A stretch of 39,388 nucleotides of DNA from Nanobdellota archaeon (lineage in GTDB: Archaea; Nanobdellota; Nanobdellia; Pacearchaeales; GW2011-AR1). This document shows positions 6,861-27,967 of this stretch, in pieces. The stretch lies in assembly GCA_038045285.1 (NCBI GenBank), contig JBBSYK010000020.1:1-39388 (forward strand). The letters are read 5' to 3'. How positions within the stretch are numbered: position 1 is the stretch's first letter; the number at the start of each line of letters is the position of its first letter. Below the pieces are notes generated by a model. That model was not told the DNA's origin. It was given only the letters and a program-made list of their open reading frames with translations, and ran no database searches. Both the position numbers and the translations under genes were made by a program.

Positions 6861-7000
6861 TAGAGAATTCTAGACTATAGAGAGCTTTGAATAACCCTCC
6901 AATTTGATATTATCTGAGGGTTTTCAAAGCGGCTCGATAGAGGACTTTAGGGGTTTTTCAAAGTCTTCTATAAGTAACATAATTACCAGAATTCTCTATA
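6861..7000. mobile_element. MITE-like palindromic element, copy 1 (two internal hairpins, short terminal inverted repeats)
   Basis: Terminal inverted repeats tagagaattcta (6861-6872) and cagaattctcta (6987-6998). Hairpin 1 spans 6884-6930 (gctttgaaTaaccctc / gagggttttcaaagc). Hairpin 2 spans 6940-6968 (gaggacttt / aaagtcttc). A second copy lies at 18246-18345. Confidence 0.6.
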
Positions 7001-10650: not shown

Positions 10651-10674
10651 AAAAAAGTCTAAATTGCGTTACTT

Positions 10675-15946: not shown

Positions 15947-15959
15947 TTTAATTATTTTA

Positions 15960-16925: not shown

Positions 16926-17246
16926 TTACACATCTAACTCTTTACTCTCCTTTCTATTTTTTATTTTGCCGTATATAAGACCTATAAGAGATCCAACAAT
17001 AAACACGATAATTATATTTGTTATACCAGTTGATATATAGAGAAACATCATATTACGACTACCTGTTACAACAGCAATAAGAAAAGAGGCACTAATAATA
17101 CTAATACAATAATAAGGACTATTTTCCCAAGACGTACATCCTTTCGAGGTATTACTTATACTCACAATTATAATAAAAAAAACAATTATTAAAATAACTC
17201 CAATCACTCCTCCCTTCAACCAATACGGCCAGTTTTTCCAACTCAT
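16926..17246 (-). CDS. Small integral membrane protein (about 3 TM), unknown function
   Basis: 106-aa ORF with three hydrophobic stretches. It abuts the downstream gene without a gap; a TATA-like TTATATAA lies about -26 to -29 upstream. Confidence 0.5.
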   Translation of the reverse strand: MSWKNWPYWLKGGVIGVILIIVFFIIIVSISNTSKGCTSWENSPYYCISIISASFLIAVVTGSRNMMFLYISTGITNIIIVFIVGSLIGLIYGKIKNRKESKELDV

Positions 17247-17346
17247 TTTTTTACCAATCCTTACTTATATAATAAAGAAGATATATTTATATACGTTCCT
17301 ATATCAATTACAATATTAAAGTAAATTAAAAAGAGCTAATTTAAAA

Positions 17347-18219
17347 ATGTCATTACTTATTGCCAGTTTTCCAGAAACGAAGCATATAGGGAAAAAAGTC
17401 GCCAAAGTCTTAAAAGCAAAACATACAACAATTTTTGTTGAAGATTTCCCAGATTCAGAGTTTCATTTAAAGCTCAGAAAAAATCCAAAAAACAAAACCG
17501 TAGTTATAATTAATTCAATAACAAAAGATCCTGACGAAAAAATAATAGAAACAATTCTTGCTGCTGGAGTAGCAAAGGATTTCGGAGCTAAGAAAGTTGT
17601 TTTAGTTGCCACTTATTTTCCCTATATGAGGCAGGATAAACATTTTCTAAAATATGACAGCTTTTCTTCAAGGCATATTATAAAGCTTTTTAGCGATTTT
17701 AATGATATTTTCTTATTAGACCCTCATCTCCATAGAATAAAAGCACCTAAGGAATTATATTGGAAAGCAAAACGCATCAGTGCGAACAAATTAATTGCTA
17801 ATTTTATTGCTAAAAAATTCAAAGGCGATTTTATTATCTTAGGTCCTGATGAAGAAAGCACACAGTGGAGTTCTGAAATTGCTAAAATACTTGGCAAAAA
17901 TGTCGTAATTTTGAAAAAAATAAGAAAATCTCCAAGATTTGTCAAAATTAATAAAGTAAATCTAGGTATAGCCAAAAATGTTATTATTATAGATGATATA
18001 ATCAGCACAGGCAGAACTTTAGTTGAAACACTCAAAATTGCCAAAGAGCAAGGAGCTAAGAATTTAGTTTGTATAGGTATACATGGCATATTTGCAGAAG
18101 GGGCTGATAAAAAGATTAGAAAATATGCTCGTTTAATAACTACAAACAGTATTCCCAATAAATATGCTAAGATAGATGTTTCTTCTGTAATTTCTGATGC
18201 GCTTAAAAATTACTCTTGA
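17347..18219 (+). CDS. prs: Ribose-phosphate pyrophosphokinase (PRPP synthetase)
   Basis: PRPP-binding loop VIIIDDIISTGRTL, DPHLHRI, overall Prs architecture (290 aa). Confidence 0.85.
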   Translation: MSLLIASFPETKHIGKKVAKVLKAKHTTIFVEDFPDSEFHLKLRKNPKNKTVVIINSITKDPDEKIIETILAAGVAKDFGAKKVVLVATYFPYMRQDKHFLKYDSFSSRHIIKLFSDFNDIFLLDPHLHRIKAPKELYWKAKRISANKLIANFIAKKFKGDFIILGPDEESTQWSSEIAKILGKNVVILKKIRKSPRFVKINKVNLGIAKNVIIIDDIISTGRTLVETLKIAKEQGAKNLVCIGIHGIFAEGADKKIRKYARLITTNSIPNKYAKIDVSSVISDALKNYS

Positions 18220-18245: not shown

Positions 18246-18345
18246 ATTATAGAGAGCTTTGAATAACCCTTATTTTCAAATGGTTTTCAAAGCGATTCTT
18301 AGAGGATTTTTGGGGTTTTTCAAAATCCCCTATAGACTAGAATTA
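18246..18345. mobile_element. MITE-like palindromic element, copy 2
   Basis: Aligns with copy 1 across tatagagagctttgaataaccc...ggttttcaaagcg...tagagga.ttt..ggggtttttcaaa.tc..ctatag. Right end ctatagactagaatt is the inverse of the copy 1 left end. Flanked by the 9-bp direct repeat TTTGAATTA (18237-18245 and 18346-18354). Confidence 0.6.
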
Positions 18346-18450
18346 TTTGAATTATGACTCAGCATGTTTAGGGCGTCGGAGGAGATCATATAAATAATCT
18401 TTTGGTATGTTATCATAAATTATATTATGATGCCATAATGTTAGTTTCAA

Positions 18451-18598
18451 TTTTTGAGAATGCCTAAGATAATAATTTCAAACAAAGAAATAGGAAATAA
18501 TATTTTTTCTCCCACCCAATAGGAGAGACGCGCGCAGTTTTCTTTTCAAGAAAACTAGATTGCAAAAACTTCGTTTTTGGATTTATAGGAGGATTTCC
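18451..18598. repeat. Left arm of a long degenerate inverted repeat bracketing the 9-gene operon
   Basis: Modules: A tttttgagaatgcc (18451-18464), B gaaataatatttttt (18494-18508), C gagagacgcgcgc (18523-18535), D pyrimidine/purine hairpin (18536-18556), E ggatttcc (18591-18598). Each has a reverse-complement partner in the same order at 24618-24737. Confidence 0.75.
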
Positions 18599-18691
18599 TT
18601 AGTCCTTCGGATAGATAGTCTCGCTTTCAGCGAGAAATTTAATTAAAAATAACTTAGTAGTAATCACAATATTAACTTTAAAATAGTAACA

Positions 18692-18699
18692 CTTATAAA
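18692..18699 (+). promoter_or_regulatory. TATA box CTTATAAA, 29 nt upstream of ATG 18721 (operon promoter)
   Basis: Same box and spacing as host genes. Favours ATG 18721 over the TTG 18715 of the ORF track. Confidence 0.45.
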
Positions 18700-18720: not shown

Positions 18721-19425
18721 ATGAAAAAACAGTATGATGACTCAACTGCCGATATGAGAGAGACAGTTTTTTCTAAAAATATTCCCAATTTTGTCCATGA
18801 AAAGTTTTTAGATTATGTGGGAAAAACTCCAAATAGGGGTAGAATTTTAGATATTGGAACAGGAAATGGATATATCTTAAGAGAAATTAAAAAGAGATTT
18901 CCTGAGAGATATGAATTAATAGGTGTTGATTCTTCTCCTTCCATGTTAGAGAAAGCAAGATTAATTGATAAAACAATAGAATATTTGTTAGCAGATAACA
19001 ATAATCTTCCCTTTAGGGATGGCCATTTTTCAACAGTTACAGCGAAAAATGTTACTCGCTTTTCAGCAGAAGAATTTGCAAGAGTTTTACAAGTAGGAGG
19101 ATTATTTGTCTTTAGAGAATACGGACCAGGAAAAGGGTTAGTTGAAATTTCTAAACTCTTTCCGGATAGATTAATTAGATCTCGTGAGCTGGATTATTAT
19201 GTTACCCAGTTAAATAAATCTGGATTTGAGAGTATCAATGTTGAAAGATTTACTATTCAAAGACAATATGCTCAAGAGGAATTGTTAAAGATTGTTCAAA
19301 TGTTTCCATTTATTGAGAATATGGATGATTCAGATTTAGAAAAGATAAAATATCTTTTTAGAGGAAAAGAATTTATTAAAGTAACTTCCGATCCATTTAT
19401 CTTAACAGCAAGGAGGAAAAAATGA
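18721..19425 (+). CDS. Class I SAM-dependent methyltransferase (UbiE/Methyltransf_11-like)
   Basis: Motif I ILDIGTGNGYIL, ELIGVDSSPSMLEKA, LPFRDGHFS, GGLFVF. Confidence 0.8.
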   Translation: MKKQYDDSTADMRETVFSKNIPNFVHEKFLDYVGKTPNRGRILDIGTGNGYILREIKKRFPERYELIGVDSSPSMLEKARLIDKTIEYLLADNNNLPFRDGHFSTVTAKNVTRFSAEEFARVLQVGGLFVFREYGPGKGLVEISKLFPDRLIRSRELDYYVTQLNKSGFESINVERFTIQRQYAQEELLKIVQMFPFIENMDDSDLEKIKYLFRGKEFIKVTSDPFILTARRKK

Positions 19426-20351
19426 TAAGCTATGATACTTTAATTATTGGTGGAGGTCCTGCAGGAATGTCTGCAGCATTATTTGCACAAGGAGATGGAT
19501 TAAATTTTAGATTGAGTGAAAAAGGGATTCCTTGCCAGTTTGTTGAAGAAACAATCAATACCAATTTTACTAATTTAGAAAATTATCTTGGTCTATATGA
19601 TATGGACGGAACATCTGTGGCGCGAATTTTTAGAAAACATTTGGAAGATAGAAAAATTCCCCTATTTCACGAAGAAATAAAGGATATAAAACCTCTTGAT
19701 AATCTTTTTTGTATAAATTCAGATAAAGGAGAGTACATGGCAAAAACGATTATTCTAGCTACGGGAACTAGACCAAGGGAATTAACAATTCCTGGAATAG
19801 AAAATGTTCTTGAAAGAGTTCATTATGGAATTAACAAAGATTTTTCTCACTATAAAAATCATGTTGCCCTAGTTGTTGGGGGAAGAAATTCTGGAGCAGT
19901 TACTGCAGTTAGATTAAAAGAAATTGGGGTAAACCCAATCGTAATAGAAAAATCATCTAAATCAACAGCTAAAACAAAATATTTAGAAAAACTGGACGAA
20001 TTATCAATACCGCTATTAACAAATGCGAATCTTGAAAAAATTGTAGGCTTTCGAGGAATACAAGAGGCACATGTTACAATCAATAATAAATTAAAAATTT
20101 TTAATCCGATTGCTATATTTGGTTGTATTGGATATACTCCAAATAACAGAATTGCGGTAGATCTCGGATTACAATTAGATAAAGAAGGGTATATTGAAGT
20201 TGATAGAAAAATGCAAACCTCTATGGAAGGAGTATATGCGGCTGGAGATGTTAATGGCGGAGTTAAAATGATTGCTGTTGCATCAGGAGAAGGAGCAATA
20301 GCAGAATATTATGCTAATGGATATGTAAAATTAAAATGGAAAGAAGAATAG
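19422..20351 (+). CDS. Thioredoxin-reductase-fold FAD/NAD(P)-binding oxidoreductase lacking the CxxC redox centre
   Basis: DTLIIGGGPAGMSAA (FAD), VVGGRNSGAVTAVRL (second dinucleotide fold), VYAAGDVNGG. No CxxC (CATCDG-type) anywhere. ATGA overlap with the upstream gene; GGAGG 6 nt upstream. Confidence 0.75.
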   Translation: MISYDTLIIGGGPAGMSAALFAQGDGLNFRLSEKGIPCQFVEETINTNFTNLENYLGLYDMDGTSVARIFRKHLEDRKIPLFHEEIKDIKPLDNLFCINSDKGEYMAKTIILATGTRPRELTIPGIENVLERVHYGINKDFSHYKNHVALVVGGRNSGAVTAVRLKEIGVNPIVIEKSSKSTAKTKYLEKLDELSIPLLTNANLEKIVGFRGIQEAHVTINNKLKIFNPIAIFGCIGYTPNNRIAVDLGLQLDKEGYIEVDRKMQTSMEGVYAAGDVNGGVKMIAVASGEGAIAEYYANGYVKLKWKEE

Positions 20352-20815
20352 GAATGTTATTTGATTGTTTAAGGGCACCTTATGATGTAGCCCATATCTA
20401 TCAGGTAGCTGTTGCTTTAGGAAATTGTGATTTATATTTATCAGGAAATAGTATTGATCCAAATCATAAAAAAATTGTTAGTAAAACAAGATCTTGGGGT
20501 ATTGAGGAGATACCCTCTTTTAGAAAGTTTGAATCTTTGAAATCTGCAGCGGAGCATCTGCATCGAGAAGGGAAATATTTGATAGGGACATCTCCCAATA
20601 CAGATAATGATCTCTATAATTATAATTTTACAAAGCATGATTCTGTTATTGTTTTTGGAACAGAATCTTCTGGATTAACTAAAAGAAAGTCTCTTTTACT
20701 TGATGATTTAATAAAAATACCCATGAATTCTGAATGTAAATTTCTAACATTGCCTACCGCAGTTCCAGTTATAGCTTATGAATTCTATAGGCAAATAAAG
20801 GAGGCTGGAAAATGA
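20336..20815 (+). CDS. Divergent SPOUT (SpoU/TrmH-like) methyltransferase-fold protein
   Basis: IVFGTESSGL (motif 2) and IKIPMNSECKFLTLPTAVPVIAYEF (motif 3-like). Motif 1 (N.G...R) is not recognisable. An alternative start is ATG 20354. Confidence 0.6.
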   Translation: MERRIGMLFDCLRAPYDVAHIYQVAVALGNCDLYLSGNSIDPNHKKIVSKTRSWGIEEIPSFRKFESLKSAAEHLHREGKYLIGTSPNTDNDLYNYNFTKHDSVIVFGTESSGLTKRKSLLLDDLIKIPMNSECKFLTLPTAVPVIAYEFYRQIKEAGK

Positions 20816-21888
20816 AATCTTTGGATGGAAAGGTATTGTATATTATAGGAACCGGAGCAAAGAAAATTACGCAGATTCCTCGTATGATACAGGAATTTGT
20901 TGGTGAAGGAGCAGAGATTTACACTATGATGTCTGATATAGGTAAACAGATATGTGATTCTGGTTTATCAGAATTTAGAATAAATAGAAATACGATTATT
21001 CAGGGTTATTCAGGAGAAGGAGAAGCTTTACCTTTAGAAGATATGGTTTTAGTTGCACCTTGCACTTTCAATACTTTAAATAAAATTGCGGGAGGTATTG
21101 CAGATACTTATCCATTAACAATAGCTGCTACAGCAATAGGAGCTGGAAGAAATGTTGTAATTGCTCCCGCTATGAATGGAGACTTATGGTATCATCCTAT
21201 TATGCAAGAATCAAGAAAGAAATTAGAACAGTGGGGCTGTAAAATTGTTTGGCCAGAGATTACCCCCGAGAAAGTTACAATGGCTCCAATTGAAAAAATC
21301 GCTGATACAGTGTATCACATTTTATCTGGAACGCGATATGATTCTGAACAAGTTGAAAGAACCATTGATTTTGATAGATTAGTTGATAACCATTATACTG
21401 AATTTAGGGAAGTCGGTCAAGAATTAGTTGATATTGATTTAACAAGAGGAACTGGGGGTTGTTTAAGTAAAAAAGTAAACGAAGGAATTTTGGTTTCAGC
21501 GAGTGGATCTCAAGTTGGAAGTTTATCTAAACAAGACATTTCCTTAATAATAAAAGTTGAAAATGAAAAGATTCATTGGATGGGATATAAAAAACCATCT
21601 TCAGAATCTCCATTACTTTCTGAGTTATATCAAAATTTCTCAGAAGCAAATGCGATCATCCATAGTCATTGTCCAAGAATTACCTATGATAGTAAAATGC
21701 AAAAATACTCGATTCCTAATTATGTTCGAGCAGGTTGTTTTGGTGAAGGAAAGAAAATCGCAAATGTTATCTCGGATAATGAGGGTTTTGCAATTTTAAG
21801 ACTTCATGGGGAATTGGCTGTTGGAAGTTCATTACAAGAGGTATATCAAAAATTAAAAACAAAGATGGAGGAAGCACATGAAAGATAA
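20812..21888 (+). CDS. Fusion protein: HFCD/PPC-decarboxylase-like flavoprotein domain (N) + class II aldolase/adducin domain (C)
   Basis: N-terminal domain: VLYIIGTGAKK, VLVAPCTFNTLNKIAGGIADTYPLT, IAPAMNGDLWYHP (PAMNxxMW-type). C-terminal domain: GTGGCLSKK, LVSASGS, KPSSES, AIIHSHCP (HxH), LRLHGELAVG. GGAGG upstream; 4-nt overlap. Confidence 0.75.
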   Translation: MKSLDGKVLYIIGTGAKKITQIPRMIQEFVGEGAEIYTMMSDIGKQICDSGLSEFRINRNTIIQGYSGEGEALPLEDMVLVAPCTFNTLNKIAGGIADTYPLTIAATAIGAGRNVVIAPAMNGDLWYHPIMQESRKKLEQWGCKIVWPEITPEKVTMAPIEKIADTVYHILSGTRYDSEQVERTIDFDRLVDNHYTEFREVGQELVDIDLTRGTGGCLSKKVNEGILVSASGSQVGSLSKQDISLIIKVENEKIHWMGYKKPSSESPLLSELYQNFSEANAIIHSHCPRITYDSKMQKYSIPNYVRAGCFGEGKKIANVISDNEGFAILRLHGELAVGSSLQEVYQKLKTKMEEAHER

Positions 21889-22426
21889 GTTAACAACATT
21901 AATTGCAGGACCTACTGATAGAACAAAATTATTTAGATTTGGAAGCATTGCTCCAGCAGAATACCAAAATTTTATAGGTAAAAGGGCTGGTATACTGGCA
22001 AGGTATATACCTCAAATAAATATTATCCCTGATGATGGAGTTCCTTTGGATATTGCCAGAGCTTATAAAAATTCAGGAGGTGAGAATGTTGTAGGTTATG
22101 TACCAAAGGGTGGAATAAGAAAATTAGAAAAATATTTCCAATATTGCGATAAGATAGAAGAATTTGATACTGGGTGGTCAGGGCTTAATACTTGCCTTAG
22201 TTTAAAAGGAGATATTATTGTTGTTTTCGGTTTCTCACCAGGAACATTGGTTGAAGTAGTATATACAAAATATCACAAAAAATATCTAGATAGAGATGTG
22301 CCAGTTATAATTGACAGAACTACAATTGATGGGAATATGCCTCCAGAATTACTGGACGAATTAAGTATAAGGTACTTTTCTACAAACGATGAATTATCAA
22401 AAATATTGGAGGGGTATAAAAAATGA
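21878..22426 (+). CDS. LOG/SLOG-family (TIGR00725-like) Rossmann-fold nucleotide-binding protein
   Basis: DDGVPLDIARAYKNSGGENVVGYVP and IIVVFGFSPGTLVEV resemble the LOG pattern G.M.a...ga...GG...G..P / ..GG.GTl.E. By-eye call. Confidence 0.55.
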   Translation: MKDKLTTLIAGPTDRTKLFRFGSIAPAEYQNFIGKRAGILARYIPQINIIPDDGVPLDIARAYKNSGGENVVGYVPKGGIRKLEKYFQYCDKIEEFDTGWSGLNTCLSLKGDIIVVFGFSPGTLVEVVYTKYHKKYLDRDVPVIIDRTTIDGNMPPELLDELSIRYFSTNDELSKILEGYKK

Positions 22427-22890
22427 GAGGGCTATATGTGGGGAGATTTGATCCATTTCATTTAGGTCATCTTAAGGCTCATGATTTGTTATGTAAAATC
22501 GTTGATGAAGTTAAAATTGGTATTGGTGCACAAAGAGAAAATGATTTTTTAACTATAGAAGAAAGAATAAAAGGAGTTTATGAAAATACAGGAGTCCAGC
22601 CAGTTGAATTAGAAGATTTGGAGAGTAATCATCCTTTATATTGGGACTGGGGAGAGTATGTTCTGGGGAGGATTGAATATGTAGAAATAGTTGCTACAGG
22701 GAATGACTATGTTAGAGATGATTTTACTAAAAAGAATATTCCTGTTTTATGGCTACCGAGGTATGATAATATAAGTGGGACCATAATTAGAAATAAAATT
22801 AGTGAGAAAGATGATTCTTGGAAATTATTAGTTCCAGAAAAAACAAAATTATTGATATTAAACTCTGTAAGATATAAGGAAACAAAATGA
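22423..22890 (+). CDS. Archaeal NMNAT-fold (HxGH) nucleotidyltransferase
   Basis: MRGLYVGRFDPFHLGHL (GRFqPFHxGH), IGIGAQ, ISGTIIRNKI, W..LVPE: close by eye to archaeal nicotinamide-nucleotide adenylyltransferase. Substrate not determinable. Confidence 0.75.
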   Translation: MRGLYVGRFDPFHLGHLKAHDLLCKIVDEVKIGIGAQRENDFLTIEERIKGVYENTGVQPVELEDLESNHPLYWDWGEYVLGRIEYVEIVATGNDYVRDDFTKKNIPVLWLPRYDNISGTIIRNKISEKDDSWKLLVPEKTKLLILNSVRYKETK

Positions 22891-23621
22891 AACTTTATCA
22901 AGATTTAGCAAAAATGTATGATTTACTCTATTCATATAGAGATTATGGTAAAGAAGCAGATTTTTTAATTAGAAATCTTGCTAAGCGATGTAGCCCAAGA
23001 TTATTAGATGTAGCTTGTGGAACAGGGGTTCATCTTGACGCATTGAGAAAAAGATTACCTTCAGCTATTTTGGAAGGGATTGATTTAAACCAAGGAATGC
23101 TTGATGTTACTAAAGAAAAATCTTTGGATGCTGGATTGACACAAACAGATATGAGGAATTTTGATTTGGGTAGAAACTTTGATTTAGTCTATTGTTTATC
23201 TAGTTCTATTCAATATAATTTATCTCAAGAAGATTTTAAAAGAACTGTTGATTCAATGAGAAATCATGCTGTTGGAGGAAAGGTGGTATTTGATTTAGCA
23301 TACTACGTTGAGAGATGGAAAGAAGGATATACAAATATAACTGCAAATAGTGATGGAAGATTTGATGTTGCTGAGCTTTACACTTCACATTCAAGTGATG
23401 GTTTTTCATATTGGAATCCACTGTATCTAATTAAAGATAAAAAAACTGGCAGAATGGATATGCATGTTGATAAGCATAAAATAAAATTATGGAGTGTCTC
23501 AGAAGTTAGAGATATTTTATCTTCACAGGAAATTCCTTTTAAATTAAAAAGAGGATATTCTGAAGTTGAAGATGAAAATGGAGTTCCAATCTTCATTTTA
23601 GAAGGAATTAAAAAAGAATAA
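22887..23621 (+). CDS. Class I SAM methyltransferase resembling TylM1/DesVI-type NDP-aminosugar N,N-dimethyltransferases
   Basis: YDLLYSYRDYGKEADFL, LLDVACGTGVHL, GIDLNQGML, TDMRNFDLGRNFDLVYCLSSSIQY. Pattern recalled from memory for the TylM1 family. Confidence 0.65.
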   Translation: MKLYQDLAKMYDLLYSYRDYGKEADFLIRNLAKRCSPRLLDVACGTGVHLDALRKRLPSAILEGIDLNQGMLDVTKEKSLDAGLTQTDMRNFDLGRNFDLVYCLSSSIQYNLSQEDFKRTVDSMRNHAVGGKVVFDLAYYVERWKEGYTNITANSDGRFDVAELYTSHSSDGFSYWNPLYLIKDKKTGRMDMHVDKHKIKLWSVSEVRDILSSQEIPFKLKRGYSEVEDENGVPIFILEGIKKE

Positions 23622-23635
23622 ATATTTATAATAAG

Positions 23636-24091
23636 ATGAAAAGAAAAATATTAACTTTTGTTGTGAATGGCAGGAAATTTTTAGCTTTGGAAATGACCAA
23701 ACATCCTGAACATGCTCCAGAAGGAGGATGGTTTGTTGTAACTGGAGGTGTAGAAGAAAATGAATCCTCTGAAGATGCAGTTGCTCGGGAAGTTTTTGAA
23801 GAAACAGGACTAAACATAGAAGAAACAATTTTCTTAAATTGGAGTTCTATTTACGAATGGAGTGGAGAATTATGTGAAGAACAGAATTTTATCTCTTTTG
23901 TTAAACCTGGGGAGGTTATTTTGAATGAAGAGCATTCAAGGTATGAATGGTTAAATCTTGATGAGTTTATTAAAAAAATTAATTGGGATGACGATAAAGA
24001 ATTATTAAAAAAGGTTCTAGAAAAAGCACTTAACAAAGAAAAACACTTTGATAAGATAACTATTAAAGATTATAGGAGAAAAAATGAATAA
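23636..24091 (+). CDS. Nudix hydrolase
   Basis: Complete Nudix box GGVEENESSEDAVAREVFEETGL (Gx5Ex7REUxEExGU). Confidence 0.85.
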   Translation: MKRKILTFVVNGRKFLALEMTKHPEHAPEGGWFVVTGGVEENESSEDAVAREVFEETGLNIEETIFLNWSSIYEWSGELCEEQNFISFVKPGEVILNEEHSRYEWLNLDEFIKKINWDDDKELLKKVLEKALNKEKHFDKITIKDYRRKNE

Positions 24092-24584
24092 TTTAGCCAT
24101 TGCTGTGATGAATTTAGCAAATGAAACTAATGTTGGTGGTTTAATTAGAACTGCTAACGCAGCAAATATTAAAGAAGTGGTTATAGTTGGAAGAAAAAAA
24201 TGGAATAAGGGTGCTGCCACAGGAGCACATTCAAAGATCAACGTTGTTAAAATGAGAACTTCAGATGAATTTATTGAATATTGTAAGGAGCATGATTATA
24301 ATATTGTATCAATTGAAATAGGCAATGATTCTAAGAATCTTTTTGATTACAGATATCCAAACAATCCGATGTTAGTTATTGGAAATGAAGGAACAGGAGT
24401 TCCACAAAAAATTCTTGAGAATTCTATTGATAGAATTTATATCCCTCAATACGGAAGTGTTGAATGTTTAAATGCTGCGGTTGCAGGAAGTATTGTTATT
24501 TATGATTGGATTAAAAAGAATAATTCTTGTAAAGAATTAGATACAATAGATAGAAAATTTGATATTTACAAATTCCAAAAATAG
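24084..24584 (+). CDS. SpoU/TrmH-family (SPOUT) 2'-O-ribose methyltransferase-like protein, canonical motifs
   Basis: NVGGLIRTA (motif 1), LVIGNEGTGV (motif 2), IPQYGSVECLNAAVAGSIVIYDW (motif 3). AGGAG upstream; 8-nt overlap with the Nudix gene. Confidence 0.85.
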   Translation: MNNLAIAVMNLANETNVGGLIRTANAANIKEVVIVGRKKWNKGAATGAHSKINVVKMRTSDEFIEYCKEHDYNIVSIEIGNDSKNLFDYRYPNNPMLVIGNEGTGVPQKILENSIDRIYIPQYGSVECLNAAVAGSIVIYDWIKKNNSCKELDTIDRKFDIYKFQK

Positions 24585-24587
24585 CGA

Positions 24588-24608
24588 CTTCTTTTTAGAA
24601 AAAAGAAG
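24588..24608 (+). terminator. Perfect hairpin CTTCTTTTT-aga-AAAAAGAAG 4 nt after the operon stop (possible terminator)
   Basis: Contains a T5 run. The terminator role is an inference. Confidence 0.3.
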
Positions 24609-24617
24609 CAAAAAGAC

Positions 24618-24737
24618 GGAAATCCCCCTTTTCTTTTTTTAGGAAAAAAAGAAACAAAAAAAGCGCGCGTCTCTCTAATACATGGTCCACCCAAAAAAAT
24701 ATTATTTCAGAATTATATAAAACGGCATTCTCAAAAA
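24618..24737. repeat. Right arm of the long degenerate inverted repeat
   Basis: Partners of the left-arm modules: E' ggaaatcc (24618-24625), D' hairpin TTTCTTTTTTT-agg-AAAAAAAGAAA (24630-24654), C' gcgcgcgtctctc (24663-24675), B' aaaaaatattatttc (24694-24708), A' ggcattctcaaaaa (24724-24737). Confidence 0.75.
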
Positions 24738-24975
24738 CTTTGATTTTTTGCCTTCAGCATCGTTGCATTAAAATCTCGTCCTCATTTCATTCAGAGAATA
24801 GAACAGGGCTTAAACGGTTCCGAAACCTTGCAGGTTTCTCCACCCAAATTGCTCGCCACTCAAAAATTTTCCATCTCTGAAGCTCATTGGGTTGCCTATT
24901 CGCTTCGAGGGAAAATTTTTAGGAGGGCTCGCAACTTCGGTTAAGCTCGATGTTAGTTTCAATTGAGAAAAAGCG

Positions 24976-25476: not shown

Positions 25477-26133
25477 ATGGATTTAATTAAATTAAGCTCA
25501 AAAGAAATCGAACCAAATCCAATAATTATTGAAGCATTAAAATACATAAATGAAAACAGCTTGTTTAAAGATAAAATTGCAAAGGTTTTGGATATCGGTG
25601 CTGGAGATGGAATGGATTCTATTTTTCTAGTCAAAAATGGATTTAACGTTACAGCAATAGACTCATCATCTTATTCCATACATAAAATTAATCAACTGGC
25701 AAAGATCCATGCTATAACAATCAAATCTGCAAAATTTGATGCAATAACTTTTCCTTTTGAAACCTCAAGATTTGTATTTGCGCAACCCTCCTGCTTCAGT
25801 TCGAGAGCAAGCAAATCAAATCTTGATGGTGCTCAAGAACCCGAACACGCCCCGGACTTTAGTCCGAGGGTTCTTGACAACTACGATATAATAATATGTA
25901 TTAATGTTTTACATCTAATAAAACTAGAAGAAGCTACAGAGTTAATTAAAAAAATGAAAATGTACACTTCAGTAGGAGGCATGAATATAGTTAGCTTATA
26001 TATAAATGATGATAGTCCTCTAAATAACTTAGAAAGTTTTTATACTGATTGGAAAATCATACATTTAAATAAAAGTTTTCATAAAGTGAAAAAAAACAAA
26101 ATACTCCTAGAGTTTATCGCCGTGAAGAAATAA
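25477..26133 (+). CDS. TehB-like class I SAM methyltransferase carrying a ~39-aa in-frame insertion
   Basis: VLDIGAGDGMDSIFL, NVTAIDSS, then YDIIICINVLHLI and GGMNIV. The segment between FPFE and NYDII is a GC-rich, low-complexity insert. Confidence 0.7.
   Translation: MDLIKLSSKEIEPNPIIIEALKYINENSLFKDKIAKVLDIGAGDGMDSIFLVKNGFNVTAIDSSSYSIHKINQLAKIHAITIKSAKFDAITFPFETSRFVFAQPSCFSSRASKSNLDGAQEPEHAPDFSPRVLDNYDIIICINVLHLIKLEEATELIKKMKMYTSVGGMNIVSLYINDDSPLNNLESFYTDWKIIHLNKSFHKVKKNKILLEFIAVKK
25762..25878. mobile_element. GC-rich palindromic insertion inside the methyltransferase ORF (frame preserved)
   Basis: Nested hairpin 25834-25876: CAAGAACCC...GGGTTCTTG enclosing CGGAC-ttta-GTCCG. Shares aaccctcc, ggactttag and gagggtt with the MITE-like element at 6861-7000. 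Confidence 0.5.
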
Positions 26134-27967
26134 GCTTCAAAGCCGATTTCGCAATGGAAGAAGAGTCAATTCCATACTTTCTTAATAATTCTTCAGATTT
26201 ACCAGAATGAGGTATTTCTCTTATTGAAAGATTAATAACTTTAATTCCACTTTTTTCTAAATCACCATAAAGCATTTCACCAATCCCTCCTTCAGTATAA
26301 TGATCTTCACTTATTACAATTCTATTTCCATGTTTTTTAATAAACTTAATTAATTTTCTTGCATTTAATGGTTTTATGCAATAAAGGTCAATTACAGCCG
26401 ATTCTATATTTTTATTTTTCAATATTTCATGGGCTTTAATAGATTCATGCAATGTAATTCCAGCCCCCAACAAAACAACCTTATCATTTTTACTTTGGCT
26501 TATAATTTTGAATTCTCCCAATAGAAATTTTTCTTTAGAAGAATAAATTATAGGTGTCTTAGGACGGGATGTTCTTAGGTATTTAACAGAAGGTTTTTTA
26601 ATTGAAGCTGCTAAATAAGTCAACTTTTCAGTTGATATAGCATCTGATGGATAAAAGATGATGCTATTAGGTAAATCGCGAAACATACCTATATCTTCTA
26701 AACCCATTTGTGAAGCTCCATCCTGTCCAATTGAAACTCCTGCATGAGAGCCGCATACTGTTATAGATGCATTGGATAATGATGACATACGGAGTTGATC
26801 ATGAGCCCTCGATAAAAATGAGGCGAAACTCGAAGCAAAAACATTGAAGCCCTTTAATGATAACCCTAAGGAAAGAGAAATCATATTTTGTTCTGCTATA
26901 AATGATTCTATAAATTGCCTAGGCGCAGCAAACTTTGCCTTTTCTGCAAAAGTAGAATTACTGACTTCAGCATCAACAACAATTACTTTCTTATTATTTT
27001 TAGCTAAGTTAGTAATTGCATTTCCATATGCTTCTCTTGTAGCAAGACTTATACTTTGAGCATAGTTAGTTAAAGAAGGAATTTTTATAATCTTAGATTT
27101 TTCATTTTGACTTTTTAATATTGGTTTTCTAATTTCAATTTCAGGAAAATCGCTTATTGGGATTTCGTCAAGTGCTCTTTCAAGTTCATATCTATTAAGA
27201 ACACGCCCGTGCCATCCTTCTTTATTCTCTATGAATGAAACTCCCTTGCCTTTAATTGTTTTGGCAAAGATTGCAAATGGTTTTTTAGCTTTTTTTGATT
27301 GTTTCAATGCAGATATAATTTGAGCAATATTGTGTCCATTCACAATCTTGACATCCCATCCAAATGACTCAAAACGTTTAGCATATTTGGCAGTATTCCA
27401 GCCGACCATTGTCTCCCCTCTCTGTCCAAGTCTATTGACATCTACAATTGCACAAAGATTATTAAGATTATAATAAGATGCCAACTGTAATGCTTCATAA
27501 ATTTCTCCTTCTGCAATTTCACTATCTCCAAGCAATACGAATGTTCTATAATCTTTATTATTTAGTTTTGCTGCAAGTGCCATTCCAAGTCCAATAGATA
27601 ATCCCTGCCCTAGTGAGCCAGTTGCTACTTTCACCCAACCATCAAAAGGAATAGGATGTCCTTCAAGACGACTTGAGATTTTTCTATATGAAAGTAAGGC
27701 ATCTTTAATACATCCAGCTCTAAAAAGAGCAGAATAATATATTGCAGAAGCATGCCCCTTGCTTAAAATAAACTCATCATTATTAGGATTTTCAGCATTT
27801 AAAGGATCAAATCTCATTTCATGAAAGAATAATGCAGCCATGATATCTGAACATGAAAGGCAAGAAGAAGGATGACCGCTGCCCGCTTCAGAAGTCATTT
27901 TTAATGTATCAACTTTAATAATATTTGAAATTTCTCTGATTTCTTTAACCTCTTTTTGAAATGCCAT
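26114..27967 (-). CDS. tkt: Transketolase (full length, N and C halves fused)
   Basis: GSGHPSSCLSCSDIMAALFF, LLGDSEIAEGEIYEA (TPP motif), ESFIAEQNM, GSHAGVSIGQDGASQMGLEDI. Confidence 0.9.
   Translation of the reverse strand: MAFQKEVKEIREISNIIKVDTLKMTSEAGSGHPSSCLSCSDIMAALFFHEMRFDPLNAENPNNDEFILSKGHASAIYYSALFRAGCIKDALLSYRKISSRLEGHPIPFDGWVKVATGSLGQGLSIGLGMALAAKLNNKDYRTFVLLGDSEIAEGEIYEALQLASYYNLNNLCAIVDVNRLGQRGETMVGWNTAKYAKRFESFGWDVKIVNGHNIAQIISALKQSKKAKKPFAIFAKTIKGKGVSFIENKEGWHGRVLNRYELERALDEIPISDFPEIEIRKPILKSQNEKSKIIKIPSLTNYAQSISLATREAYGNAITNLAKNNKKVIVVDAEVSNSTFAEKAKFAAPRQFIESFIAEQNMISLSLGLSLKGFNVFASSFASFLSRAHDQLRMSSLSNASITVCGSHAGVSIGQDGASQMGLEDIGMFRDLPNSIIFYPSDAISTEKLTYLAASIKKPSVKYLRTSRPKTPIIYSSKEKFLLGEFKIISQSKNDKVVLLGAGITLHESIKAHEILKNKNIESAVIDLYCIKPLNARKLIKFIKKHGNRIVISEDHYTEGGIGEMLYGDLEKSGIKVINLSIREIPHSGKSEELLRKYGIDSSSIAKSALKLISSRR

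What the first reader, a model, noticed from the sequence alone, without database searches (positions are those of the whole stretch)
18721..24584. Nine-gene, translationally coupled nucleotide-centric operon that I cannot map to any characterised pathway
Nine same-strand genes are packed with 4-16 nt overlaps, apart from one 14-nt gap. The overlap junctions are 19422/19425, 20336/20351, 20812/20815, 21878/21888, 22423/22426, 22887/22890 and 24084/24091. There is a single TATA box at -29 of gene 1. Most internal cistrons have GGAGG-type SD sequences (upstream of 19422, 20812, 21878, 22423 and 24084), whereas most unit-leading genes elsewhere in the window have none.

Content by motif:
- SAM methyltransferase
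- TrxR-fold flavoprotein without CxxC
- divergent SPOUT
- HFCD-flavoprotein::class II aldolase fusion
- LOG/SLOG protein
- archaeal NMNAT-fold nucleotidyltransferase
- TylM1-like methyltransferase
- Nudix hydrolase
- canonical SpoU/TrmH

Every component acts on nucleotides, nucleotide-linked sugars or cofactors, or RNA ribose. Competing hypotheses, all inference:
(a) Synthesis and turnover of a methylated NAD/ADP-ribose-like or other nucleotide-derived small molecule. This uses the NMNAT + Nudix + LOG logic, as in NadM-Nudix fusions.
(b) A CoA-like or nucleotide-activated sugar/cofactor pathway: an HFCD decarboxylase-like domain plus an HxGH adenylyl/cytidylyltransferase, as in CoaC/CoaD logic; an aldolase for a sugar phosphate; a TylM1-like N-methylation step.
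(c) An RNA-end or tRNA modification/repair module (two SPOUTs, a nucleotidyltransferase, Nudix).
(d) A conflict/defence cassette, given the inverted-repeat-bounded context.
Basis: partly seen in the sequence, partly recalled or inferred. Interest (0 to 1): 0.85.

Follow-up and report, generated by a model that had tools for sequence, protein, structure and literature searches.

The report
Conserved mobile nucleotide-modifying operon, product unknown
The nine genes are a real, self-contained operon from a gene-cluster family shared by ultra-small archaea (Pacearchaeota) and ultra-small bacteria (Patescibacteria), and it most likely makes a methylated nucleotide-derived compound that no described pathway accounts for.

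Summary
**Observation.** It is confirmed: nine + strand genes at 18721-24584, the stated overlaps, GGAGG sites before g2, g4, g5 and g6, and one TATA box about 28 nt before gene 1. All nine domain calls hold.

**Not a chance juxtaposition.** I examined 74 non-redundant loci that encode the rare flavoprotein::class II aldolase fusion (g4).
- The divergent SPOUT (g3) is directly adjacent in 50 of 53 loci.
- The UbiE-like methyltransferase (g1) is present in 47 of 47.
- The Nudix (g8) is present in 28 of 35.
- None of the window's flanking genes recur.

**Two architectures.**
- Archaeal: g1-g2-g3-g4-g5, then an NMNAT-like enzyme or a kinase, methyltransferases, Nudix and SpoU.
- Bacterial: g1-g3-g4 with a viperin-like radical SAM enzyme, an extra methyltransferase, Nudix and a kinase.

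**Departures from the parent families.**
- g4 lacks the catalytic His of Cys-decarboxylases but keeps the aldolase metal site.
- g3 has invariant D/Q where SpoU enzymes have N/R.
- g3 also occurs alone. In one lineage the resident g3 copy decayed after the cluster arrived.

**Best reading (about 0.4).** The operon makes a bioactive nucleotide-derived small molecule, and its RNA methyltransferases give self-protection.

**Rivals.** RNA hypermodification, a modified cofactor, and viperin-type defence.

I found no literature on this cluster.

The parts
18693..18699 (+). TATA-like box (TTATAAA) 22-28 nt upstream of the g1 ATG. It is the likely single archaeal promoter, and the transcript is leaderless or has a very short leader.
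   Evidence: Sequence read; motif scan. The block is conserved in L036, L001 and L069.
18721..19425 (+). g1: class I SAM methyltransferase (UbiE/Methyltransf_11/25 type). It is an invariant core gene of the cluster family.
   Evidence: Pfam E 6e-14. All NCBIfam hits are below cut-off (ArsM_2, BioC, UbiE, RlmA). Present in 47 of 47 fusion loci with enough flank. Has a family-specific conserved C-terminal block, AKNVTR...REYGPGKG.
19422..20351 (+). g2: thioredoxin-reductase-fold FAD/NAD(P)H oxidoreductase without the CxxC redox disulfide. It is a type A (archaeal) accessory gene.
   Evidence: Pyr_redox_2 E 2e-37. TIGR01292 scores 173 bits against a cut-off of 343. Best PDB match is TrxR 3cty, E 8e-36. 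No conserved Cys pair in 27 orthologues; GGGPAG, GGRNSG and AAGD are kept. Present in 26 of 43 loci, and never together with the viperin-like rSAM.
20336..20815 (+). g3: minimal SPOUT-fold protein of a distinct 'D/Q' subfamily. It is an invariant core gene and is almost always translationally coupled to g4.
   Evidence: SpoU_methylase 56 bits. Best PDB match is AviRb, E 2e-9. In 66 orthologues motif 1 is P-Y-D-x-A-x-I-x-Q (D17 and Q23 invariant) instead of N-x-G-x-x-x-R, while knot motifs 2 and 3 are kept. Directly adjacent to g4 in 50 of 53 loci. The family has at least 296 clusters, some standalone.
20812..21888 (+). g4: fusion of an HFCD-type flavoprotein domain (residues ~8-170) and a class II aldolase/AraD-like domain (residues ~195-350). 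It is the signature gene of the cluster.
   Evidence: Pfam finds both domains. AlphaFold pLDDT is 93.6. Foldseek matches PPC-DC, EpiD and UbiX for the N half and FucA and MtnB-like for the C half, with no solved chain containing both. Invariant residues are E76 D77 N87 K91 D98 | P262 E265 H284 H286 T291 Y292 Y304, with S263, S264 and H332 nearly invariant. The catalytic His of the decarboxylases is absent. There are only ~29 full-length representatives among 1.84 billion.
21878..22426 (+). g5: SLOG/LOG-fold nucleotide-binding or N-glycosidase-like protein. Its family is found only in this cluster (type A).
   Evidence: Only a faint Pfam hit, LDcluster4, and no PDB sequence hit. 52 homologues, all at 48% identity or more. 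AlphaFold pLDDT is 93.7. Foldseek matches Moco carrier protein, TM1055, TT1465 and LOG with TM 0.6-0.7. SPGTxxE is conserved, equivalent to the LOG motif PGGxGTxxE.
22423..22890 (+). g6: HxGH nucleotidyltransferase closest to archaeal NMN adenylyltransferase. It is an accessory gene, absent or replaced by an APH-family kinase in other loci.
   Evidence: CTP_transf_like E 5e-10. NMNAT subfamily model scores 65 bits against a cut-off of 127. Best PDB match is MJ0541, E 2.5e-11. GRFxPFHxGH and SGTxIR are conserved. Present in 16 of 43 loci. APH replaces it in L019 and L059.
22887..23621 (+). g7: TylM1/DesVI-like class I methyltransferase, a family of amine N,N-dimethyltransferases that act on nucleotide-linked sugars. 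It is an accessory gene.
   Evidence: PDB 3pfg, E 2e-20, followed by DesVI and CalS10. Present in 16 of 37 loci.
23636..24091 (+). g8: small single-domain Nudix hydrolase of MutT/NudB/Ap4A-hydrolase type, a likely NTP or dinucleotide pyrophosphohydrolase. It is frequent in both architectures.
   Evidence: NUDIX E 4e-15. NudB-like E 2e-10, below cut-off. PDB matches are 5cfi and MTH1. The Nudix box is conserved. Present in 28 of 35 loci.
24084..24584 (+). g9: canonical SpoU/TrmH-type 2'-O-ribose RNA methyltransferase with all three motifs intact. It is an accessory gene.
   Evidence: SpoU_methylase 110 bits. RlmB and TrmH hits are below cut-off. The motifs N-x-G-x-x-x-R, GNEGxG and IPxxGxxxxLN are conserved. 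Present in 9 of 22 loci.
18451..18547 (.). Left arm of the imperfect inverted repeat that brackets the operon. It includes GAGAGACGCGCGC at 18523-18535 and lies inside the conserved non-coding block 18438-18640.
24651..24737 (.). Right arm of the inverted repeat. It includes the reverse complement of GAGAGACGCGCGC at 24663-24675 and lies just after the T-rich terminator region that follows g9.

Best explanation
**What it is.** The nine genes are one transcription unit and one mobile functional unit. It is an elaborate archaeal member of a modular cluster family whose invariant core is g1 (class I methyltransferase), g3 (D/Q-type SPOUT) and g4 (flavoprotein::class II aldolase).

**Proposed function.** The cluster most likely makes a methylated, nucleotide-derived small molecule with biological activity, such as an antimetabolite or a signal. 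Its RNA methyltransferases protect the producer's own RNA target.

**Proposed flow (inferred, not shown).**
1. A nucleoside triphosphate or dinucleotide is trimmed by the Nudix enzyme g8.
2. The nucleotide state is shuffled by the NMNAT-like adenylyltransferase g6. In other loci an APH-type kinase takes this place.
3. The LOG-fold protein g5 binds the nucleotide or cleaves its N-glycosidic bond.
4. The phospho-sugar or ribose-derived part is enolised, dehydrated or cleaved at the metal site of the g4 aldolase domain. This is coupled to flavin redox chemistry in the g4 N-terminal domain, which the TrxR-like g2 reduces.
5. g7 N-methylates an amine.

In bacterial versions a viperin-like radical SAM enzyme plus another methyltransferase replace g2 and g5.

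**Role of the RNA methyltransferases.** g3 and g9, and perhaps g1, methylate rRNA or tRNA so that the product does not harm the producer. Standalone g3 copies in other genomes would then be resistance-only or housekeeping copies.

**Shown versus inferred.**
- Shown: unit structure, conservation, modularity, domain identities, residue conservation and loss, mobility, and the fact that g3 does not need g4.
- Inferred: the substrate, the order of steps, the bioactivity and the immunity role.
For: **Real conserved unit.**
- g3 is adjacent to g4 in 50 of 53 loci, g1 is present in 47 of 47 and g8 in 28 of 35.
- Architectures are tabulated.
- Flanking genes are never shared between loci.

**Enzymes that point to nucleotides or small molecules.**
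- g7 matches TylM1/DesVI at E 2e-20.
- g8 is a MutT/NudB/Ap4A-type Nudix.
- g6 matches NMNAT MJ0541 at E 2.5e-11.
- g5 has a LOG/Moco-carrier fold and keeps SPGTxxE.
- The g4 C-domain keeps the His metal ligands, the PSSE acid/base and the phosphate-binding serines of FucA/MtnB.
- The type B radical SAM is closest to viperin, BlsE and MoaA. It matches both pVip models end to end at 92-104 bits.
- An APH-type kinase appears in both architectures.

**No accessory RNA-binding domains.** Pfam finds no RNA-binding domain such as THUMP, PUA or TRAM in any of the proteins.

**g3 works without g4.**
- Standalone D/Q-type copies lie in housekeeping contexts in Saccharibacteria and in L114.
- In L027 the resident g3 decayed to an 85-nt remnant after a cluster with its own g3 (84% identical) arrived, while the flanks are 94-95% identical.

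**Precedent.** The saskemycin gene cluster carries a class I methyltransferase plus a SPOUT methyltransferase that confer self-resistance by methylating one rRNA nucleotide. Both are orthologues of housekeeping enzymes (PMC12637814).

**Accessory and mobile character.**
- A flanking inverted repeat.
- IS remnants.
- Relaxase and R-M neighbours.
- Distribution across both domains at 32-42% identity.
- A MacB-type exporter and a two-component system next to the cluster in L111.
Against: - No product, substrate or target has been observed.
- No exporter, aminotransferase or glycosyltransferase lies in the window's operon.
- g3 lacks the Asn and Arg that SpoU-type 2'-O-methyltransferases use for catalysis. 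Its RNA-methylating activity is therefore assumed, not shown.
- A SPOUT enzyme that methylates the small molecule itself cannot be excluded.
- Some bacterial loci appear to have little beyond g1, g3 and g4. That is thin for a biosynthetic pathway, although L076, L111 and L113 show extra genes that my queries missed.
- DPANN and CPR organisms are not known producers of specialised metabolites.
- Median pI values do not separate RNA enzymes from small-molecule enzymes.
Confidence: 0.4

Rival explanations
1. RNA hypermodification pathway. g3 installs a base or ribose methyl group on a specific tRNA or rRNA nucleotide. g1, g4, g2/g5 (or the radical SAM enzyme plus MTb), g7 and g9 elaborate it into a complex modified nucleoside, in the way wybutosine or mnm5s2U pathways work.
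For: - There are two SPOUT genes.
- g3-type SPOUTs stand alone among housekeeping genes.
- The standalone and cluster copies are functionally redundant, so g3 could be the first step that the rest builds on.
- g1 and MTb show weak similarity to the rRNA methyltransferases RlmA, Erm and KsgA.
- A radical SAM enzyme and an FAD oxidoreductase are known to substitute for each other at one tRNA-modification step (PMC13228596). This mirrors the mutually exclusive g2 and rSAM.
- g3 and g4 are tightly coupled in translation.
Against: - Nudix, NMNAT-like, LOG-fold, APH-kinase, TylM1-like, HFCD and class II aldolase families have no known role in RNA modification.
- No RNA-binding accessory domains are present.
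- The cluster is mobile and patchy, which is unusual for core RNA modification.
- The radical SAM resembles viperin, BlsE and MoaA, which act on free nucleotides, rather than RlmN, MiaB or TYW1.
Confidence: 0.2
2. Synthesis or salvage of a modified cofactor, meaning a methylated NAD-, flavin- or CoA-like dinucleotide. g4 would act on or modify a bound flavin or phosphopantetheine-like substrate. g6 and g8 would interconvert the mono- and dinucleotide forms. g5 would act as a carrier, like a Moco carrier protein.
For: - The g4 N-domain derives from CoaC and is 31% identical to the CoaC part of P0287.
- A CoaC-CoaB-aldolase fusion exists in an archaeon.
- UbiX, which modifies its own flavin, is among the structural neighbours of g4.
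- g6 is NMNAT-like.
- The best structural matches of g5 are Moco carrier proteins.
- g2 could supply reduced flavin.
Against: - The catalytic His and clamp Cys of PPC decarboxylases are absent.
- g6 is present in only 16 of 43 loci and g5 and g2 are absent from all bacterial versions. The dinucleotide-handling part is therefore dispensable.
- A cofactor pathway would not be expected to be patchy, IS-flanked and exchanged between domains.
- g3-alone genomes make no sense for a cofactor pathway step.
Confidence: 0.15
3. Anti-virus defence that produces chain-terminating or otherwise toxic nucleotides on infection. This would be a relative of prokaryotic viperin systems, with the Nudix enzyme and the methyltransferases controlling or tailoring the nucleotide.
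For: - The type B radical SAM matches the pVip models full length, E 1e-27 to 1e-30, and its best PDB hit is viperin.
- L025 lies next to an R-M-like island and a relaxase.
- The cluster is patchy and mobile.
- Nudix g8 weakly hits a PADLOC candidate family.
Against: - The viperin-like gene is absent from the window and from all 43 type A loci.
- None of g2-g6 or g9 matches any PADLOC model.
- The rSAM scores are below NCBI's viperin cut-off, 80-93 bits against 180.
- No sensor or effector architecture is present.
- The fusion is absent from viral contigs and phage genomes.
Confidence: 0.1
4. Disposal or salvage of SAM by-products (SAH, MTA, 5'-deoxyadenosine) by a DHAP-shunt-like route made of a nucleosidase (g5), a kinase (APH) and a class II aldolase or dehydratase (g4). 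It would be co-located with SAM-consuming enzymes.
For: - The g4 C-domain is closest to MtnB-like aq_1979 and scores against MtnB and FucA models.
- The APH family includes methylthioribose kinase (my own knowledge).
- The cluster encodes 3-5 SAM-dependent enzymes.
- The window's neighbours are pentose and nucleotide salvage genes.
Against: - No MtnA-type isomerase is present.
- Strict linkage of g4 to two particular methyltransferases is not expected for general by-product salvage.
- The g4 aldolase domain forms a distinct clade, with N29 replaced and extra invariant residues T291, Y292 and Y304.
- The window's neighbours are not conserved elsewhere.
Confidence: 0.05
5. Chance juxtaposition of unrelated housekeeping genes in a compact genome.
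For: DPANN genomes are gene-dense and overlaps are common. Each family has housekeeping relatives.
Against: The same genes recur in the same order in dozens of distinct loci from two domains of life, while the flanking genes differ.
Confidence: 0.01

Closest known systems
Self-resistance methyltransferase pairs in antibiotic gene clusters, such as SasO (class I, RsmC-like) plus SasN (SPOUT) of the saskemycin cluster (PMC12637814), and AviRb and TsnR/NshR
   Same: A class I methyltransferase and a SPOUT methyltransferase are embedded in a biosynthetic cluster. Orthologous copies occur as ordinary standalone genes in other genomes. g3's best solved relative is AviRb.
   Different: No antibiotic or target is known here. 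g3 lacks the canonical SpoU catalytic Asn and Arg. The hosts are DPANN and CPR organisms, not actinomycetes.
Prokaryotic viperins (pVip) and other radical SAM enzymes that act on nucleotides (BlsE, MoaA)
   Same: The bacterial members of the cluster family carry a 303-aa radical SAM protein that aligns end to end with the pVip models. Its best PDB match is viperin.
   Different: The scores are below NCBI's viperin cut-off. The gene is absent from the window and from all archaeal-type loci. pVips are not known to be linked to SPOUT or HFCD-aldolase genes.
CoaBC (Dfp) and the HFCD cysteine decarboxylases (PPC-DC, EpiD, MrsD)
   Same: The g4 N-domain has the same fold, the PxxxxNTxxK motif and most of the PAMN motif. 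An archaeal CoaC-CoaB-aldolase fusion, P0287, shows the same pair of domains in one protein.
   Different: The catalytic His is replaced by non-conserved residues, there is no conserved clamp Cys, and there is no CoaB domain.
Class II aldolase/AraD-like superfamily (FucA, MtnB, DrdA/Ald2 of the DHAP shunt, OtnC)
   Same: The His metal ligands (H284 and H286 invariant, H332 nearly so), the Glu acid/base (E265) and the phosphate-binding Ser-Ser are conserved. Foldseek TM-scores normalised to the target are 0.6-0.68.
   Different: The Asn29 equivalent is Cys or Phe. There are additional invariant residues T291, Y292 and Y304. The domain is fused to a flavoprotein. Related domains occur in ~320-aa and ~800-aa proteins of unknown function.
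LOG cytokinin-activating phosphoribohydrolases, SLOG domains and Moco carrier proteins
   Same: g5 has the fold (TM 0.6-0.7) and a GTxxE motif. LOG-clade SLOG domains release modified free bases that act as signals (PMC9503650).
   Different: The N-terminal glycine-rich loop is replaced by GPTDxTK. No conserved Arg sits at the LOG catalytic position. The family is confined to this cluster.
Nucleoside-antibiotic pathways such as puromycin and A201A (my own knowledge, not tested here)
   Same: They combine a Nudix NTP pyrophosphohydrolase, an oxidoreductase, N- and O-methyltransferases and a resistance kinase, and they act on a nucleotide.
   Different: There is no aminotransferase, peptide-bond-forming enzyme or acetyltransferase. 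There is no sequence-level orthology beyond the superfamily.

Membership tests
HFCD cysteine decarboxylases (CoaC/PPC-DC, EpiD) - g4 N-domain | Flavoprotein (PF02441) fold with FMN-binding motifs | tested here: met
   Pfam E 6.5e-16. Foldseek matches 1mvn, 1g63 and 3qjg with target-normalised TM 0.75-0.80. N87, K91 and D98 are invariant.
HFCD cysteine decarboxylases (CoaC/PPC-DC, EpiD) - g4 N-domain | Catalytic His (H90 in AtHAL3a, H67 in EpiD) and the substrate-clamp Cys | tested here: not met
   The column that aligns with the His of P0287 ('VEHIQLED') is Ala in the window and varies (A/S/L/E/K/P) across 26 fusions. There is no invariant Cys in the N-domain.
Class II aldolase/AraD-like (FucA, MtnB) - g4 C-domain | Three His metal ligands plus the Glu73-equivalent acid/base and the Ser-Ser phosphate site | tested here: met
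   H284, H286 and E265 are invariant. H332, S263 and S264 are conserved in at least 90% of sequences. Pfam E 1.5e-16.
Class II aldolase/AraD-like (FucA, MtnB) - g4 C-domain | Equivalog-level match to a characterised member (FucA, MtnB, AraD, OtnC) | tested here: not met
   All NCBIfam hits score 42-51 bits against cut-offs of 137-400. The Asn29 equivalent is replaced.
SpoU/TrmH 2'-O-ribose RNA methyltransferases - g3 | Trefoil-knot SAM-binding motifs 2 (GxExxG) and 3 (IPMxxxxxSLN-like) | tested here: met
   FGTExxGL and P129...F-L-T-L are conserved in 66 orthologues. Pfam 56 bits.
SpoU/TrmH 2'-O-ribose RNA methyltransferases - g3 | Motif 1 N-x-G-x-x-x-R with the catalytic Arg | tested here: not met
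   It is replaced by D-x-A-x-I-x-Q, with D17 and Q23 invariant in archaeal, bacterial and standalone copies.
SpoU/TrmH 2'-O-ribose RNA methyltransferases - g9 | All three SpoU motifs and a strong family score | tested here: met
   Pfam 110 bits. N-x-G-x-x-x-R, GNEGxG and IPxxGxxxxLN are conserved. No equivalog cut-off is reached, so the target nucleotide is unknown.
Thioredoxin reductase - g2 | Redox-active CxxC in the NADPH domain | tested here: not met
   The window has 'YGINKDF' where TrxR has 'CATCDG' (read). There is no conserved Cys pair in 27 orthologues. TIGR01292 scores 173 against 343.
LOG phosphoribohydrolases - g5 | LOG/SLOG Rossmannoid fold | tested here: met
   Foldseek probability 1.0 and TM 0.6-0.7 to LOG, TT1465, TM1055 and Moco carrier protein.
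LOG phosphoribohydrolases - g5 | PGGxGTxxE motif with catalytic Glu and the partner Arg | tested here: inconclusive
   G-x-S-P-G-T-x-x-E is conserved (G118, S120, G122, T123 and E126 invariant), but no invariant Arg is found in the family alignment. Catalysis versus binding cannot be decided.
NMN adenylyltransferase (archaeal type) - g6 | H/TxGH and ISSTxxR-type motifs | tested here: met
   GRFDPFHLGH and SGTIIR are conserved in 14 orthologues. Best PDB match is MJ0541, E 2.5e-11.
NMN adenylyltransferase (archaeal type) - g6 | Score above the curated family cut-off | tested here: not met
   PRK01153 scores 65 bits against 127, and TIGR01527 scores 60 against 181.
Prokaryotic viperin (pVip) defence | Presence of the viperin-family radical SAM gene | tested here: not met
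   None is found in the window or in 43 type A loci. It is present in 12 of 31 type B loci, where it matches the pVip models at 92-104 bits but scores below NCBI's cut-off.
Known anti-phage systems (PADLOC) | Match of the component proteins to a described system | tested here: not met
   There are only generic methyltransferase hits (mad2) and one candidate Nudix family. g2, g3, g4, g5, g6 and g9 have no hit.
Nucleotide-derived specialised-metabolite cluster with target-site self-resistance | A detectable product, and a resistance phenotype that depends on the methyltransferases | not testable with these tools
   This needs expression, metabolomics and RNA mass spectrometry.

The most novel reading that the evidence does not exclude
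Ultra-small episymbionts of both domains (Pacearchaeota and Patescibacteria) share, by horizontal transfer, a previously unknown pathway. Its signature enzyme couples flavin chemistry to aldolase-type chemistry on a nucleotide-derived phospho-sugar. The pathway yields a new class of methylated nucleotide-derived compound used against hosts, competitors or viruses. A new D/Q-type SPOUT methyltransferase acts as the matching immunity or target-modifying enzyme.
Probability: 0.3. Interest if true: 0.85.

Novelty: new variant of a known kind. Interest (0 to 1): 0.7.

Why it matters
DPANN archaea and CPR bacteria are thought to have almost no specialised metabolism, and most of their conserved gene clusters are unexplained.

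This cluster is compact, conserved and exchanged between the two domains. It is built around a domain fusion seen in only about 29 representative proteins among 1.84 billion, and around a SPOUT subfamily that has swapped its catalytic residues.

- If it makes a bioactive nucleotide derivative, it would be a first handle on chemical interactions between these episymbionts and their hosts or viruses. It would also add a new enzyme chemistry that joins flavin and class II aldolase domains.
- If it instead builds an RNA modification, it would bring enzyme families never seen before in RNA modification.

Either way the 6-kb operon is small enough to synthesise and test directly.

Tried and rejected
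- **Rfam.** Nothing scored at gathering threshold over the whole window. The permissive search of the two flanks gave nothing on the left and, on the right, four sub-threshold matches led by a wcaG match at 24.5 bits against a gathering score of 42. No riboswitch reveals the ligand.
- **Conserved upstream block 18438-18650.** Folding gave z-scores of -1.8 and -2.1. That is too weak to call an RNA.
- **tRNAs.** None in the window.
- **Viral contigs, INPHARED phages and PLSDB plasmids.** There is no full-length fusion, only CoaBC- or EpiD-type hits to the N-domain. P0313 against plasmids gave nothing.
- **PADLOC on the nine proteins.** Only generic hits.
- **Chloroflexota loci L004-L016.** They match only the flavoprotein half and have an unrelated context, so I dropped them.
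- **CoA hypothesis.** Examined and downgraded because the catalytic His is absent.
- **RiPP hypothesis** (HFCD + radical SAM + N-methyltransferases). Considered and rejected. There is no catalytic His, no SPASM domain in the 303-aa radical SAM, and I saw no conserved small precursor ORF.
- **Kennedy-type phosphocholine pathway** (kinase + cytidylyltransferase + N-methyltransferases). Considered and rejected. g6 is NMNAT-like, and the kinase and g6 are both dispensable.
- **pI comparison.** It did not discriminate RNA enzymes from small-molecule enzymes.
- **APH-like kinase of L019.** No PDB sequence relative at E <= 0.01.
- **Literature.** Eight full-text searches found no description of this cluster, fusion or SPOUT subfamily.

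Full report
**1. The observation**

The ORF scan finds nine + strand ORFs at the stated coordinates.
- Overlaps between consecutive genes are 4, 16, 4, 11, 4 and 4 nt, then a 14-nt gap, then 8 nt.
- GGAGG lies 10-15 nt upstream of g2, g4, g5 and g6. g9 has GGAG and g7 has AGGA. g1, g3 and g8 have none. Few of the other ~30 ORFs in the window have such a site.
- TTATAAA lies at 18693-18699, which is 22-28 nt before the g1 ATG.
- A hairpin and a T-run follow the g9 stop codon.
- GC content is the same as in the rest of the window, so composition gives no sign of recent import.
- The window belongs to a Nanoarchaeota/Pacearchaeota MAG. P0001 is 100% identical to g4 and comes from a 39,388-bp contig, and the closest genome locus is 'Candidatus Pacearchaeota'.

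**2. What each protein is**

| Gene | Assignment | Key evidence |
|---|---|---|
| g1 | Class I SAM methyltransferase, UbiE/Methyltransf_11 type | No NCBIfam equivalog |
| g2 | TrxR-fold flavoprotein without CxxC | Best PDB match TrxR 3cty, E 8e-36. 'YGINKDF' stands where TrxR has the CxxC. No conserved Cys pair in 27 orthologues |
| g3 | SPOUT, new D/Q subfamily | Pfam 56 bits, best PDB match AviRb. Motif 1 N-x-G-x-x-x-R is D-x-A-x-I-x-Q in 66 orthologues, with D17 and Q23 invariant. Knot motifs 2 and 3 are kept |
| g4 | HFCD flavoprotein + class II aldolase | pLDDT 93.6. Foldseek finds PPC-DC, EpiD and UbiX for one half and FucA and MtnB-like for the other. No solved chain has both |
| g5 | SLOG/LOG fold | No sequence match in the PDB. 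The model (pLDDT 93.7) matches Moco carrier proteins, TM1055, TT1465 and LOG. SPGTxxE is conserved |
| g6 | NMNAT-like nucleotidyltransferase | MJ0541 E 2.5e-11. Motifs are kept but scores are below family cut-offs |
| g7 | TylM1/DesVI-like methyltransferase | E 2e-20 |
| g8 | Small MutT/NudB/Ap4A-type Nudix | |
| g9 | Canonical SpoU | 110 bits, all motifs intact |

In g4 the aldolase metal ligands (H284, H286, H332), the PSSE acid/base (E265) and the Ser-Ser phosphate site are conserved across 26 fusions. The catalytic His of Cys decarboxylases is not: it is Ala in the window and the column varies.

Three proteins (g2, g3 and the g4 N-domain) have lost the defining catalytic residues of their parent families. 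In g3 the replacement residues (D17, Q23) are themselves invariant, so this is a change of function rather than decay.

**3. Is it a functional unit?**

I collected 116 loci from genome, metagenome and assembly collections. I mapped the nine proteins plus accessory proteins onto 108 of them.

Among 74 non-redundant loci with a full-length fusion:
- g3 is directly adjacent to g4 in 50 of 53. The three exceptions have g3 two genes away.
- g1 is present in 47 of 47.
- g8 is present in 28 of 35, g5 in 41 of 62, g2 in 26 of 43, g6 in 16 of 43, g7 in 16 of 37 and g9 in 9 of 22.

None of twelve flanking genes of the window recurs near the cluster in any other locus that carries it. The proposed refutation by chance juxtaposition therefore fails decisively.

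There are two architectures.
- Type A (archaeal; g4 is 48-99% identical to the window): [MTase] g1 g2 g3 g4 g5 [g6, APH kinase or nothing] [MTase] [g7] g8 [g9].
- Type B (bacterial; 32-42% identical): [viperin-like rSAM + MTase] [Nudix] [APH-like kinase] g1 g3 g4, or g1 g4 MTase rSAM g3.

The viperin-like radical SAM occurs in 0 of 43 loci that have g2 or g5, and in 12 of 31 loci that lack them.

The fusion family is rare. There are about 29 full-length representatives among 1.84 billion 50%-identity representatives. It is absent from IMG/VR, from phage genomes and from PLSDB plasmids.

**4. Mobility**

- The operon is bracketed by an imperfect inverted repeat of about 90 nt. Its GC-rich 13-mer occurs exactly twice in the window, with 0 expected.
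- Both flanking non-coding regions are 76-88% identical in related Pacearchaeota loci. In L033 the 'upstream' block lies downstream of the operon, next to transposase fragments.
- L023 has an IS240-like gene after g9.
- L025 sits between a relaxase and an R-M-like island.

The clearest case is L114 against L027, two bacterial loci whose flanks are 94-95% identical.
- L114 has a lone g3.
- L027 has an 85-nt remnant of that resident g3, which is 93% identical to it.
- L027 also has a 5.65-kb extra segment that carries TyrRS, rSAM, MTase, g1, a more divergent g3 (84% identical) and g4.

The cluster therefore arrives with its own g3 and makes the resident copy redundant.

**5. What the g3 asymmetry means**

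- Every fusion has a g3, but g3-type SPOUTs form a larger family of at least 296 clusters.
- g3 also stands alone among housekeeping genes: beside RecG in a Saccharibacteria contig, and beside FtsK and the S6-SSB-S18 genes in L114. These copies keep the D/Q motif.
- A mid-pathway enzyme for a small molecule would be pointless on its own. g3 therefore has a self-sufficient activity, most simply methylation of an RNA.

This fits two models:
- g3 is the first step of an RNA hypermodification.
- g3 (with g1 and g9) is a target-modifying immunity gene that is more widespread than the biosynthetic genes. The saskemycin cluster is a direct precedent. It carries a class I (RsmC-like) and a SPOUT methyltransferase that protect the producer by methylating one 16S rRNA nucleotide, and both are orthologues of common housekeeping enzymes (PMC12637814).

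**6. What the other genes point to**

Apart from the SPOUTs, the families involved act on free nucleotides, nucleotide-linked sugars or phospho-sugars:
- TylM1-like g7.
- NTP- or dinucleotide-type Nudix g8.
- NMNAT-like g6.
- LOG-fold g5. LOG-clade SLOG domains release modified free bases that act as signals (PMC9503650).
- APH-type kinases.
- The class II aldolase domain with an intact phosphate site.
- In type B, a radical SAM whose nearest solved relatives are viperin, then SkfB, BlsE, other viperin-like enzymes and MoaA. It aligns end to end with both pVip models.

No protein carries an RNA-binding accessory domain.

I therefore favour a nucleotide-derived small molecule made by g4, g2, g5, g6, g7 and g8, with g3, g9 and possibly g1 acting on RNA. 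Confidence is about 0.4. The step order in the 'best explanation' field is inference.

**7. Rivals**

- **RNA hypermodification (0.2).** It explains the tight g3-g4 coupling and the alternation between g2 and rSAM. A radical SAM enzyme is known to replace an FAD oxidase at a tRNA modification step (PMC13228596). It does not explain the enzymes that handle free nucleotides.
- **A modified cofactor (0.15).** It is suggested by the CoaC ancestry of g4, by the archaeal CoaC-CoaB-aldolase fusion P0287 and by the Moco-carrier-like g5. It fits poorly with the patchy distribution, the mobility and the g3-alone genomes.
- **Viperin-type defence (0.1).** It applies at best to type B.
- **SAM by-product salvage (0.05).** It lacks an isomerase and does not explain the strict linkage.
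- **Chance (0.01).** Excluded.

**8. Novelty**

Eight full-text searches found no description of this cluster, the fusion or the D/Q SPOUT subfamily. Every component belongs to a known superfamily, and the overall logic resembles known biosynthetic or modification clusters. I therefore class it as a new variant of a known kind. There is about a 0.3 chance that it is a truly new pathway class for nucleotide-derived bioactive compounds in DPANN and CPR organisms.

Interest is 0.7. The cluster is real, conserved, cross-domain and experimentally tractable, and it has two unusual enzymes. Its function remains inferred.

Noticed in passing
window 18438-18640; also L036, L001/L032 and L069 (upstream of g1) and L033:5985-6163 (downstream of the operon): A non-coding block of about 200 nt, 76-88% identical across Pacearchaeota loci, lies upstream of the TATA box. 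It contains the conserved string GGATTTCCTTAGTCCTTCGGAcAGATAGTCTCG and a hairpin at 18619-18635. It has no Rfam match, and its fold z-scores are only -1.8 and -2.1. It could be a small RNA, a regulatory region or the end of a mobile element.
   Followed up: partly
window 24585-24975: The non-coding region downstream of the operon is 83-84% identical in L001/L032 and L033. It contains the right arm of the inverted repeat, a direct copy of ATGTTAGTTTCAATT (also at 18438), and a sub-threshold match to the wcaG RNA motif on the - strand (24574-24658, 24.5 bits against a gathering score of 42).
   Followed up: partly
window 18248-18334 and 6876-6972: Two intergenic stretches of about 90 nt are 77% identical to each other. 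This is another repeated non-coding element in the genome.
   Followed up: no
L116:6757-8580 (protein P0287, archaeal MAG GCA_042570655.1): A 607-aa protein combines CoaC, CoaB and a class II aldolase domain. The CoaC catalytic His is intact. The gene is translationally coupled to an upstream Amidohydro_2 gene and is followed by a GNAT acetyltransferase. This suggests a link, undescribed as far as I could find, between class II aldolase-like enzymes and phosphopantetheine metabolism in some archaea.
   Followed up: partly
proteins P0294, P0298 and P0307 (~320 aa) and P0313, P0339, P0344 and P0394 (~800 aa): P0294 and P0313, whose sequences I read, carry the g4-type aldolase signature (HxHC..TY...Y..Y.xG) in other architectures. 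The others match the same region of the g4 profile. P0394 has an N-terminal response-regulator receiver domain, and Pfam detects no other domain in the rest of the ~800-aa proteins. Their function and genomic context are unknown.
   Followed up: partly
L022:11117-12082: A 321-aa protein made of two tandem g3-like SPOUT domains, a covalent pseudo-dimer, lies next to g4. A third g3-like gene lies at L022:13763-14269.
   Followed up: no
L076:3414-4031 and 9421-10173: Two paralogous genes that look, by eye, like a pyrophosphatase fused to a glyoxalase/bleomycin-resistance domain flank the bacterial cluster on the same strand. A 2H-phosphoesterase-like ORF with two HxT motifs lies at 10176-10679, and a type I R-M system follows.
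   Followed up: no
window 25477-26133: A TehB-like methyltransferase whose Pfam match is split into two stretches by a low-complexity insert (roughly residues 100-135). It is not conserved next to the cluster elsewhere.
   Followed up: partly
window 15035-18219 and 26114-27967: The operon is embedded among pentose and nucleotide salvage genes: a PfkB kinase, a 2-hydroxyacid dehydrogenase, PRPP synthetase and a fused transketolase. This neighbourhood is not conserved in other loci.
   Followed up: yes
protein P0286 (739 aa): A protein with four tandem HFCD flavoprotein domains appeared among the representative hits.
   Followed up: no
L111:10886-14983: A MacB-type ABC transporter (FtsX + ABC_tran) and a two-component system lie immediately downstream of the bacterial g1-g3-g4 cluster. 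They may export or sense the product.
   Followed up: no
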